From positions 1 through 64,000 of the IMG/VR virus record IMGVR_UViG_3300045988_135589: 64,000 nt of DNA. One strand, given 5' to 3'. This document shows positions 22,285 through 22,730 of the stretch, one piece after another. The stretch comes from a virus. A model generated the notes under the pieces. That model saw nothing but the letters and a program-made list of their open reading frames with translations. It had not been told where the DNA came from and did not search any database. The position numbers were made by a program, and so were the translations under genes. Each line of letters starts with the position of its first letter. Within the stretch, counting starts at the first letter, position 1.

Positions 22285-22474
22285 CCTAATTGAAGAAATA
22301 AAAGCAGCATTCATAGATTTCCTGCCGGCAGGAACAGTGCTTTACTAATTACGATATTTTTAACATGGATTTTGGACAAGATTTAGAACCAGAAGAACTG
22401 ACCAAGCATTATGATCAGTGTTATAACCCCAAATAGTATTAACCCAATATAATTCTATTATAAAAGTTTAATAC

Positions 22475-22730
22475 ATCTCTTTCAGAGATCGGGTTATTAG
22501 CCTAAGCCTTGAAACAGAGGCTACGTTATTTGAGAATAAATAGTTACCAAGGAATGTTTATCCAAGTTTCTTGCTCTAAGGATGGTGATTAAACAGGAGT
22601 AGTGTATTTGACGAAACAGTGTTGCCATTATATAAAACCTCTTATAACATTGGCGATGGGTACTTACAGGAGAAATCATGACTTATCCCTAACGGGATTT
22701 ACATCTACCAAGGAGACCGGAAGGTCTCCG
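22475..22730 (+). ncRNA. Orphan omega-RNA-like scaffold (second copy, no adjacent iscB) with a distinct 5' segment
   Basis: Bases 22494-22671 align to 9572-9745 at roughly 75-80% identity with compensatory stem substitutions. The 5' flanking 20 nt differ completely from copy 1. A strong GGAGACC-GGAA-GGTCTCC hairpin lies at 22712-22729. Confidence 0.5.

What the first reader, a model, noticed from the sequence alone, without database searches (positions are those of the whole stretch)
22470..22730. Orphan second copy of the omega-RNA scaffold with a different 5' guide-like segment and compensatory stem changes
Bases 22494-22671 align base-for-base with 9572-9745 at roughly 75-80% identity by eye. 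The substitutions are concentrated in stems and preserve pairing. Copy 1 forms GTGTT-GAAACA-AACAC where copy 2 forms GCCTT-GAAACAG-AGGC. The short hairpins just 5' of the homology also differ while keeping a stem (AATAGC-CAAAA-GCTATT versus ATCTCT-TTCAG-AGAT). This is the signature of a structured RNA under selection, not of a decaying repeat. The approximately 20 nt immediately 5' of the scaffold are unrelated in the two copies (9552-9571 ATAGCCAAAAGCTATTCCGA versus 22474-22493 CATCTCTTTCAGAGATCGGG). The guide position of an omega-RNA would behave this way. Copy 2 has no nuclease gene next to it. It ends in a strong GGAGACC-GGAA-GGTCTCC hairpin (22712-22729) and sits right after the ACP-NfeD-flotillin module. 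Together this suggests one IscB served by two or more trans-encoded guides. That would be a CRISPR-less, multi-guide OMEGA arrangement in a phage, which to my knowledge has not been described. An alternative is that these are the two left-end-like termini of a composite or degenerate IS.
Basis: seen in the sequence. Interest (0 to 1): 0.85.

Follow-up and report, generated by a model that had tools for sequence, protein, structure and literature searches.

The report
Gene-less mobile IscB guide-RNA element in phage
The second RNA copy is the guide-RNA gene of a 364-base, protein-less offshoot of the phage's IscB transposon; this kind of mini-element is already known in bacteria, but here it is scattered through crAss-like gut phages, always inserted exactly at gene start codons.

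Summary
Bases 22494-22669 match 9572-9742 at 79.7% identity, and both copies score above Rfam's threshold for HEARO, the IscB omega-RNA. The stem differences preserve pairing.

The interpretation needs correcting. Copy 2 is not a free-standing trans guide gene. It is a complete 364-bp ORF-less mobile element (22423-22786) with sharp ends. The nearest relative, phage csAssE-Sib, has a clean empty site there, as do 111 IMG/VR stretches. The same unit sits at 12 or more other sites in crAss-like phage contigs. It is almost always inserted N|ATG, at the start codon of the next gene, without target duplication. This is the known ISC/IS200-IS605 target, and it equals the TAM of a tested IscB.

The guide must instead be the left flank, 22407-22422 (CATTATGATCAGTGTT). 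That flank followed by ATGG is exactly what the empty sites contain.

The most likely function is that IscB (9791-11017), acting in trans, cuts element-free alleles and so keeps or spreads the insert. This is inferred, not shown. ORF-less omega-RNA elements served in trans are already described in bacteria. The phage setting appears undescribed in the library searched.

The parts
22407..22422 (+). Predicted guide of the orphan omega-RNA (CATTATGATCAGTGTT). This is flank DNA immediately 5' of the element.
   Evidence: The sequence varies between insertion sites right up to 22422 and is constant from 22423 onwards. In csAssE-Sib and in 111 IMG/VR stretches these 16 nt are followed directly by ATGGAATTG. 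The role as guide is inferred from OMEGA architecture.
22423..22786 (+). 364-bp ORF-less mini-element, a non-autonomous ISC / IS200-IS605-type, PATE-like element.
   Evidence: It is absent as a clean indel in OR575929.1, with no target duplication. The same unit with the same ends is found at 12 or more sites in IMG/VR crAss-like contigs.
22423..22686 (+). Omega-RNA scaffold: the HEARO match 22423-22667, plus a 3' hairpin CAGGA-GAAA-TCATG (22667-22680) and ACTTAT.
   Evidence: Rfam RF02033 scores 95.2 bits against a threshold of 83. Covariation is shown. The 3' hairpin covaries with CAGAG/CTCTG in copy 1 and is shared with IscB-linked copies as far as GACTTAT. The window copy has one G·A mismatch in it.
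22423..22497 (+). Stem P1 (ATAACCC 22423-22429 pairing with GGGTTAT 22491-22497) and its internal hairpins.
   Evidence: Perfect 7-nt inverted repeat. The P1 arms covary between element classes: AUAACCC/GGGUUAU, AUAUCCG/CGGAUAU and AUAAUCG/CGAUUAU.
22687..22739 (+). Internal spacer specific to the mini-element, with hairpins CCC-TAAC-GGG and GGAGACC-GGAA-GGTCTCC (22712-22729). Role unknown.
   Evidence: No counterpart in the full-length IscB elements. The hairpin is confirmed but is not terminator-like.
22740..22786 (+). Right end of the mini-element, with the subterminal palindrome TTAAATATATTTAA (22760-22773).
   Evidence: It aligns with the last codons and post-stop sequence of the 406-aa IscB elements.
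22787..22789 (+). ATG that is at once the insertion target / presumed TAM and the start codon of ORF 22787-23134.
   Evidence: 8 of 9 distinct orphan right flanks and about 15 distinct IscB-element right flanks begin with ATG; the remaining orphan flank begins ACG. The ORF is listed.
9475..9490 (+). Predicted guide of the IscB-linked omega-RNA (GTGGCCACGATAGTAA).
   Evidence: Homology to csAssE-Sib stops at about 9491, in the ATAGTAAA run immediately 5' of the TAATCG that opens the element. Other phages join different left flanks to the same ATAATCG start.
9491..11040 (+). Full-length IscB element: omega-RNA 9491-9760 (P1 ATAATCG 9491-9497 / CGATTAT 9569-9575), IscB ORF 9791-11017, right end 11018-11040. 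It is followed by ATG 11041 of the DUF4494 gene.
   Evidence: HEARO scores 107.8 bits (its start at 9549 is a truncated P1). Pfam RRXRR 2e-60 plus HNH. OgeuIscB matches at 1e-44 to 1e-46, with the RuvC and HNH motifs aligned. The same element lies in front of 13 or more other ATG start codons.
12193..12211 (+). Empty target site in this phage for an orphan element found in other phages (AAATAATTGACAGAT|ATGAGAA).
   Evidence: The left flank of the L006/L033/L066/L067 orphans matches window 12059-12208 at 95-97% and is followed there by ATG.
40545..40563 (-). Empty site, on the minus strand, where other phages carry the 406-aa IscB element, in front of ORF 40242-40547.
   Evidence: The right flank of the 406-aa elements encodes MYNKEIVICAAIWVQDGKKRP. 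The window homologue MCDKEIVVCAAIWVQDDKKRP starts at 40547 with no insert upstream.

Best explanation
Copy 2 is the omega-RNA gene of a 364-bp protein-less derivative (22423-22786) of the IscB (ISC, IS200/IS605-family) elements that populate this group of crAss-like phages.

Structure. The element keeps the omega-RNA end and about 47 nt of the other end of a full-length IscB element. It has lost the nuclease gene.

Insertion. It inserted without target duplication immediately 5' of the ATG of ORF 22787-23134, in the same orientation as that gene. It is therefore probably transcribed by read-through from upstream phage genes.

Guide and target. As in other OMEGA systems, the guide is not inside the element. 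It is the about 16 nt of flank just upstream (22407-22422). That sequence followed by ATG(G) exists only in genomes that lack the insert.

Proposed mechanism. IscB made from 9791-11017, or from a co-infecting phage, loads this RNA and cuts the insert-free allele. That allele may be a copy from which the element was excised or a co-infecting relative. Recombination with an insert-bearing genome then restores or copies the element.

New sites. Movement to new N|ATG sites needs a Y1 transposase (TnpA) that this window does not encode.

Shown: identity as HEARO; element boundaries; empty sites; multiple insertion sites; N|AYG specificity; descent from IscB elements; co-occurrence with IscB.

Inferred: transcription; loading by IscB in trans; cleavage of empty sites; the source of the transposase.

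The confidence given (0.7) blends about 0.9 for the identification as a mobile ORF-less IscB-element derivative with about 0.5 for its use by IscB in trans.
For: - Both copies exceed the HEARO gathering score.
- csAssE-Sib has a clean empty site...CAGTGTT|ATGGAATTG..., with no duplication. A second site confirms the absence of duplication.
- A 26-mer from the core found 72 IMG/VR loci. About 17 copies are IscB-linked and 56 copies are orphans. The orphans share sharp ends, ATAACCCC... and ...GGGAT|ATG, and have 15 or more different left flanks and 9 different right flanks.
- Right flanks start with ATG at 8 of 9 orphan sites and at about 15 distinct IscB-element sites. This matches the published ISC target N|ATGA (PMC4810608) and the reverse complement of the tested GstIscB TAM, TTCAT (PMC10055086).
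- The filled junction reads ATA instead of ATG/ACG in all three element classes. That could spare the phage's own locus.
- The right end of the mini-element aligns with the right end of the 406-aa IscB elements.
- IscB at 9791-11017 has the RRXRR and HNH domains. It aligns to OgeuIscB through the DAG, E, HH and H..D motifs.
- Omega-RNA stem variants are shared between orphans and copies linked to IscB proteins 82-98% identical to the window's, which suggests cross-compatibility.
- At least 22 of 54 orphan-bearing contigs also carry IscB. This is a lower bound, since only 80 of 302 IscB loci were listed.
- 111 IMG/VR stretches carry the exact 16-nt guide match followed by ATGG; 15 are filled.
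- Stem variants include G·U wobbles that pair only on the omega-RNA sense strand.
Against: - There is no expression or cleavage data.
- No Y1_Tnp (TnpA) hit was found among window ORFs of 400 aa or fewer. No closely related element was found in 185,579 species genomes, so the transposase source is unknown.
- The window copy has a G·A mismatch in the 3' hairpin (CAGGA/TCATG), whereas most copies have TCCTG.
- All compensatory stem variants seen in orphans also occur in IscB-linked copies. There is therefore no evidence that selection acts on the orphans themselves.
- Flanks of filled alleles are about as diverse as flanks of empty alleles, and the elements at this site differ by 2.3%. This does not separate homing from an old insertion followed by recombination.
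- Parabacteroides phage PF672P2 carries an orphan HEARO but no IscB. Orphans can therefore persist without a resident nuclease.
Confidence: 0.7

Rival explanations
1. It is a purely parasitic miniature transposon. The omega-RNA sequence persists only because it overlaps the transposon end that TnpA needs, or because the copies are young. IscB never uses it.
For: - The orphans are very similar to one another (mean difference 4.4%), so their intact structure could simply reflect recent spread.
- No stem change is specific to orphans.
- An orphan exists in PF672P2, which has no IscB.
- The window copy has a hairpin mismatch.
- Many IscB genes in these elements are themselves decaying, to 20-335 aa.
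Against: - About 260 nt of scaffold is kept intact in 50+ copies, although IS200/IS605 transposases need only short subterminal hairpins (established knowledge of the family).
- Stems stay 99-100% paired across variants, including sense-strand-only G·U pairs.
- IscB co-occurs in at least 41% of orphan contigs.
Confidence: 0.27
2. It is a trans-encoded guide gene whose guide is 22474-22493, aimed at host, plasmid or rival-phage protospacers, in a CRISPR-less multi-guide arrangement.
For: The segment differs between the two copies in the window. IscB is encoded 12 kb away.
Against: - The segment is identical in all orphan copies at every site.
- It forms a hairpin inside the loop closed by P1, at the position of the HEARO model's second internal hairpin, and it lies inside the inserted DNA.
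- The 16 nt 5' of the scaffold are what vary with the insertion site.
Confidence: 0.02
3. It is a domesticated leader. The element is retained because it supplies transcription or translation signals, or a structured 5' UTR, for the downstream gene whose start codon it always abuts.
For: Every insertion replaces the native upstream region of a gene and is co-oriented with that gene.
Against: - The downstream genes are unrelated to one another.
- 111 relatives express the same gene without the insert.
- The ATG preference is explained by the known ISC target and TAM.
Confidence: 0.04

Closest known systems
HEARO RNA / IscB omega-RNA (Rfam RF02033; OMEGA systems of Altae-Tran et al. 2021, cited from memory; Meers et al. 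2023, PMC10055086)
   Same: It matches the covariance model above threshold. It shares the same helices with covariation. The scaffold starts at the transposon end, and the guide position lies in the flank. The linked copy sits directly upstream of an IscB ORF.
   Different: Copy 2 has no ORF. The host is a lytic-type crAss-like phage and not a bacterial chromosome. The P1 loop carries about 60 nt of extra hairpins.
PATE-like ORF-less IS200/IS605 elements that encode omega-RNAs and are served in trans (Meers et al., PMC10055086)
   Same: It consists of both transposon ends plus a guide-RNA gene, with no protein. It occurs in many copies. It needs the nuclease and the transposase from elsewhere.
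   Different: The passage read here speaks of TnpB acting on such elements in Geobacillus. This one is IscB/HEARO-type, is carried in phage genomes, and is inserted only at start codons.
ISC transposons with N|ATGA target sites (Kapitonov, Makarova and Koonin 2016, PMC4810608)
   Same: No target duplication. Insertion immediately 5' of ATGA-like sites. Non-autonomous. IscB lies on the sense strand. PF672P2's orphan even begins with GTCA, as ISC1-1_MA does.
   Different: The target here is looser: ATG followed by A, G or T, and occasionally ACG. The termini are ATAA/ATAT instead of GT...CG.
Free-standing homing endonucleases of phages, and 'transposon non-restorative homing' (review PMC13565253)
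   Same: A presence/absence polymorphism at one site among related phages. The nuclease target is reconstituted only in the insert-free allele.
   Different: Recognition would be by RNA and not by protein, and one nuclease could serve several inserts. Homing is not demonstrated here. The review treats the phage case as theoretical.

Membership tests
HEARO / IscB omega-RNA (RF02033) | Covariance-model score at or above the curated gathering score | tested here: met
   95.2 bits (copy 2) and 107.8 bits (copy 1), against a threshold of 83.
HEARO / IscB omega-RNA (RF02033) | Conserved helices supported by compensatory changes | tested here: met
   Helices 5, 8 and 9 are 99-100% paired, with 2, 3 and 3 pairs changed on both sides. 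The covariation score is 0.133 against 0.068 in shuffles (0 of 500) and at most 0.056 when slid. The sequences are closely related, so the depth of this test is modest.
HEARO / IscB omega-RNA (RF02033) | Lies immediately upstream of an IscB (RRXRR + HNH) ORF | tested here: not met
   Copy 2 is followed by a 115-aa ORF with no Pfam hit. Copy 1 meets this feature. An RNA family member without its ORF is still a family member, but it is an orphan.
OMEGA guide architecture | Guide is flank DNA directly abutting the scaffold at the transposon boundary | tested here: met
   The insertion boundary against the empty site (22423) is the first base of the HEARO match and of P1. Upstream sequence differs at every insertion site.
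OMEGA guide architecture | RNA is expressed, bound by the nuclease, and directs cleavage next to a TAM | not testable with these tools
   No transcript or biochemical data are available.
Non-autonomous ISC / IS200-IS605 element (PATE-like) | Discrete ends found at multiple unrelated loci, with empty sites in relatives | tested here: met
   12 or more sites for the orphan and 13 or more for the IscB element. Empty sites are; the sites are.
Non-autonomous ISC / IS200-IS605 element (PATE-like) | No target-site duplication; insertion next to a short specific motif | tested here: met
   Filled and empty alleles at two sites fit only a model without duplication. The target is N|ATG at nearly all sites, as published for ISC.
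Non-autonomous ISC / IS200-IS605 element (PATE-like) | Subterminal palindromes at both ends | tested here: met
   P1 (ATAACCC/GGGTTAT) at one end and TTAAATATATTTAA at the other. Whether a transposase binds them is unknown.
Non-autonomous ISC / IS200-IS605 element (PATE-like) | Mobilised by a Y1 (HUH) TnpA transposase | tested here: inconclusive
   There is no Y1_Tnp hit among window ORFs of 400 aa or fewer, and no close relative in bacterial species genomes. A host-encoded or unsampled TnpA is not excluded.
CRISPR-like multi-guide array | Repeat-spacer organisation, or several guides processed from one locus | tested here: not met
   There is a single scaffold per element, and only two copies in the window, 12.9 kb apart.

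The most novel reading that the evidence does not exclude
crAss-like gut phages run a distributed RNA-guided gene drive. One compact (408-aa) IscB serves its own omega-RNA plus ORF-less omega-RNA satellites scattered at start codons around the genome. Each satellite is programmed by its own flank to cut, and then convert or exclude, co-infecting relatives that lack that insert. On this reading OMEGA elements are agents of phage-versus-phage competition and of accessory-gene loss, for example loss of the flotillin module.
Probability: 0.3. Interest if true: 0.75.

Novelty: new member of a known kind. Interest (0 to 1): 0.45.

Why it matters
It puts a correct label on a conspicuous non-coding repeat in a family of abundant human-gut phages. 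It shows that IscB elements and their gene-less satellites are common there: 302 IscB loci and 56 orphan copies from one exact-word scan.

If the satellites are functional, these phages offer a natural system for testing RNA-guided homing between co-infecting viruses, which a 2026 review still calls theoretical. The cultured Parabacteroides phage PF672P2, which has an orphan but no IscB, is a possible control.

The 408-aa IscB with an apparently simple ATG-type TAM may also interest tool developers.

Tried and rejected
- Thermodynamic folding of both RNAs: not significantly more stable than shuffles, so it was not used as evidence.
- Terminator reading of the GGAGACC hairpin: there is no T-run and it is not scored as a terminator.
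- Origin of the 53-nt internal spacer: no match in full-length elements or elsewhere in the window.
- Transposase search: Pfam on 60 concatenated window ORFs gave no Y1_Tnp hit. ORFs above 400 aa and non-ATG starts were not all scanned.
- Bacterial source: an exact 22-mer scan of species genomes found nothing. The closest IscB proteins were 78% identical (a Vibrio olivae contig) and 68% identical (a Phocaeicola MAG) and were not examined further.
- Homing signature: flank diversity of filled versus empty alleles and divergence of the elements at the site gave no clear co-conversion tract.
- Orphan-specific compensatory evolution: none was found; every stem variant also occurs in IscB-linked copies.
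- Altae-Tran et al. 2021 could not be read. Statements about it come from memory.
- The Rfam start of copy 1 (9549) was rejected in favour of 9491, after comparing left flanks in other phages.

Full report
**1. The observation.** blastn aligns 9572-9742 with 22494-22669 at 79.7% identity over 177 columns (E = 4e-39), and the window holds no third copy. Rfam's HEARO model (RF02033, the RNA now known as the IscB omega-RNA) matches both above its gathering score of 83. The match at 9549-9740 scores 107.8 bits and the match at 22423-22667 scores 95.2 bits. Copy 1 lies upstream of a 408-aa ORF (9791-11017) with Pfam RRXRR (2e-60) and HNH domains. That ORF aligns to solved IscB structures (OgeuIscB and relatives, E = 1e-44 to 1e-46) through the RuvC-I DAG, RuvC-II E, HNH HH and RuvC-III H..D motifs. 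Copy 2 is followed by a 115-aa ORF with no Pfam hit and by a PD-(D/E)XK exonuclease.

**2. Structure.** I mapped the Rfam consensus structure onto an alignment of 50 distinct copies: the two in the window plus relatives from IMG/VR.
- The covariation score is 0.133 against 0.068 in column shuffles (0 of 500 reach it). It is 0.009-0.056 when partners are slid by 1-3 columns.
- Helices 5, 8 and 9 are 100%, 100% and 99% paired, with two, three and three pairs changed on both sides.
- Several variants are G·U wobbles that pair only on the omega-RNA sense strand.
- Thermodynamic folding alone is not significant (z = -1.0 and -1.5).

However, the sequences are close relatives, and every stem variant seen in orphans also occurs in IscB-linked copies. 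The data therefore show constraint on the family, not on the orphans in particular.

**3. What copy 2 is.** The window is from a crAss-like phage. Its nearest GenBank relative is phage csAssE-Sib (OR575929.1, human gut, 151 kb, about 92% identity). Sib lacks both copies.
- At the copy-2 site Sib reads ...GATCAGTGTT|ATGGAATTGATTTTG..., and the window has 364 extra bases (22423-22786) at that point.
- An exact 26-mer from the conserved core found 72 stretches in large IMG/VR viral contigs. About 17 copies precede an IscB gene and 56 copies have none.
- The orphans share sharp ends, ATAACCCCAAATAG... on the left and ...AATAGAATATG(A/G)GAT on the right. They have at least 15 different left flanks and 9 different right flanks.
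- One contig carries two orphans 2.1 kb apart.
- The last 47 nt or so of the orphan align with the last codons and post-stop sequence of the 406-aa IscB elements.
- The 53 nt in between, which include the GGAGACC hairpin, have no counterpart in those elements.

Copy 2 is therefore a complete, internally deleted, non-autonomous derivative of an IscB element. It is not a free-standing RNA gene and not a decayed remnant left in place.

**4. Where it inserts.** At 8 of 9 orphan sites and at about 15 distinct sites of full-length IscB elements, the right flank begins with ATG (ATGG, ATGA or ATGT). One orphan site has ACG. In the window that ATG is the start codon of ORF 22787-23134, and for copy 1 it is the start codon of the DUF4494 gene at 11041. 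Filled and empty alleles at two sites fit only a model without target duplication. This is the behaviour published for ISC transposons, which insert N|ATGA without duplication and are non-autonomous (PMC4810608). ATGAA is also the reverse complement of TTCAT, the motif that both TnpA and IscB recognise in Geobacillus (PMC10055086). The same paper places the HEARO region at the transposon end.

**5. Where the guide is.** That segment is identical in every orphan whatever the insertion site. It also lies inside the inserted DNA. It is a hairpin within the loop closed by stem P1 (ATAACCC 22423-22429 pairing with GGGTTAT 22491-22497), at the position of the HEARO model's second internal hairpin.

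P1 covaries between element classes: AUAACCC/GGGUUAU in orphans, AUAUCCG/CGGAUAU in 406-aa elements, and AUAAUCG/CGAUUAU in the window's 408-aa type. That last comparison also corrects copy 1. Its scaffold and element start at 9491, not at 9549 where the Rfam alignment begins. Homology to Sib stops at about 9491, in the ATAGTAAA run immediately 5' of the TAATCG that opens the element, and other phages join different flanks to the same ATAATCG start.

The sequence that does vary with site is the flank upstream of P1. The predicted guides are therefore 22407-22422 (CATTATGATCAGTGTT) for copy 2 and 9475-9490 (GTGGCCACGATAGTAA) for copy 1. The copy-2 guide followed by ATGGAATTG occurs in Sib. A scan for its last 12 nt joined directly to ATGGAATTGATT found 111 IMG/VR stretches, and the preceding bases shown for the seven commonest variants (all 111 copies) end in CATT, completing the 16-nt match. 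Fifteen stretches carry the insert at that site. In the filled locus the guide match is followed by ATA instead of ATG or ACG in all element classes, which could protect the phage's own copy. This last point is inference.

**6. How it most likely works.** By analogy with tested OMEGA systems, the element is transcribed with its upstream flank. It is always co-oriented with the gene it abuts, so read-through is likely. IscB supplied in trans loads the RNA and cuts insert-free alleles. Recombination with an insert-bearing genome then restores or copies the element.

Points consistent with trans use:
- The window encodes an apparently intact IscB.
- IMG/VR holds 302 related IscB loci.
- At least 22 of 54 orphan-bearing contigs also carry IscB, a lower bound because only 80 loci were listed.
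- Scaffold modules are shuffled among orphans and copies linked to IscB proteins 82-98% identical to the window's.
- The window itself has empty sites for elements found in other phages, at 12208|ATGAGAA and, on the minus strand, at 40548|ATGTGTG. The system is therefore polymorphic across the population.

Points not shown:
- Expression, loading and cleavage are untested.
- Movement to new sites needs a Y1 transposase. None was found among window ORFs of 400 aa or fewer.
- No close relative of the element was found in 185,579 bacterial and archaeal species genomes.
- A test for co-conversion was inconclusive. Flanks of filled alleles are about as diverse as flanks of empty ones, and the elements at the site differ by 2.3%.

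**7. Rivals.** The main rival is that the orphans are inert parasites whose RNA is never used. In its favour:
- The copies are young (mean divergence 4.4%).
- The window copy has a G·A mismatch in the 3' hairpin.
- Many IscB genes in these elements are truncated.
- The cultured Parabacteroides phage PF672P2 carries an orphan HEARO (130 bits) ending just before an ATGAAT start codon, yet encodes no IscB.

Against it, the whole 260-nt scaffold is retained with paired stems, although only short subterminal hairpins should matter to a transposase.

**8. Comparison with what is known.** ORF-less, PATE-like IS200/IS605 elements that encode omega-RNAs and must be served in trans are described in bacteria. 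From memory, stand-alone omega-RNAs were also noted by Altae-Tran et al. 2021, which I could not read. HEARO has been listed in Staphylococcus Silviavirus phages. tblastn finds IscB-like ORFs in 38 GenBank phage records, annotated as HNH endonuclease or hypothetical. I found no paper in the held library that links IscB or HEARO to crAss-like phages. A 2026 review treats transposon homing between co-infecting phages as theoretical. I therefore file this as a new member of a known kind in a new setting.

**9. Verdict.** The identification as a mobile ORF-less IscB-element derivative is secure. Its use by IscB in trans is plausible but untested.

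Noticed in passing
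window 22411-22422; loci L005-L069 (filled alleles), L075-L183 (empty alleles): All 111 empty alleles read ATGATCAGTGTT|ATGG, with A six bases from the junction. By contrast, 13 of 15 filled alleles read ATGATCGGTGTT. Only the window and L036 are filled with A. This could be linkage to the founding insertion, or a drive-and-resistance pattern in the guide's seed.
   Followed up: partly
window 20401, 22350, 22410, 22422 (orphan site); 9491 region (IscB site); loci L013, L027, L031, L039, L193-L209: At a fixed right junction the guide-side junction is hypervariable. The orphan at 22787 has five different left junctions, and the IscB element at 11041 has at least five. Most of these junctions fall just before an ATG or ACG of the uninterrupted sequence. 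In L013, L027 and L039 the flotillin gene is deleted. The cause could be recombination between tandem copies or one-ended transposase events; the mechanism is unresolved.
   Followed up: partly
L273 2430-2690 (Parabacteroides phage PF672P2, OP172820.1): This cultured 61-kb phage carries an orphan HEARO (130 bits). It starts with GTCA and ends just before the ATGAAT start codon of PF672P2_00078. tblastn finds no IscB in the record. It is a possible experimental system.
   Followed up: partly
window 12193-12211 (+) and 40545-40563 (-): These are empty insertion sites in this phage for an orphan element and for a 406-aa IscB element that occupy the same positions in other phages.
   Followed up: yes
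loci L004, L014, L048, L201, L203, L214, L218, L251: These are IscB genes truncated or frameshifted to 20-335 aa behind omega-RNA regions that look intact. They may be intermediates between full elements and ORF-less ones.
   Followed up: no
window 42650-43303 (-): An ORF with an AntA domain plus T5orf172/MUG113 (GIY-YIG-like) domains. It looks like another homing-endonuclease-type gene.
   Followed up: no
window 9549 versus 9491: Rfam's alignment of copy 1 starts 58 nt too late, because it pairs ATAAT/ATTAT instead of the true P1, ATAATCG (9491-9497) / CGATTAT (9569-9575).
   Followed up: yes
L184 (Vibrio olivae NZ_JBHMEP010000019.1): A 20-kb contig of a marine Vibrio genome encodes an IscB 78% identical to this gut-phage protein. 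The host is odd; it may be a phage contig or contamination.
   Followed up: no
window 19789-22257: The acyl-carrier-protein, transmembrane-protein and flotillin (Band_7 + Flot) module upstream of the orphan is present in csAssE-Sib. It is missing from several relatives in which the orphan abuts the deletion.
   Followed up: partly
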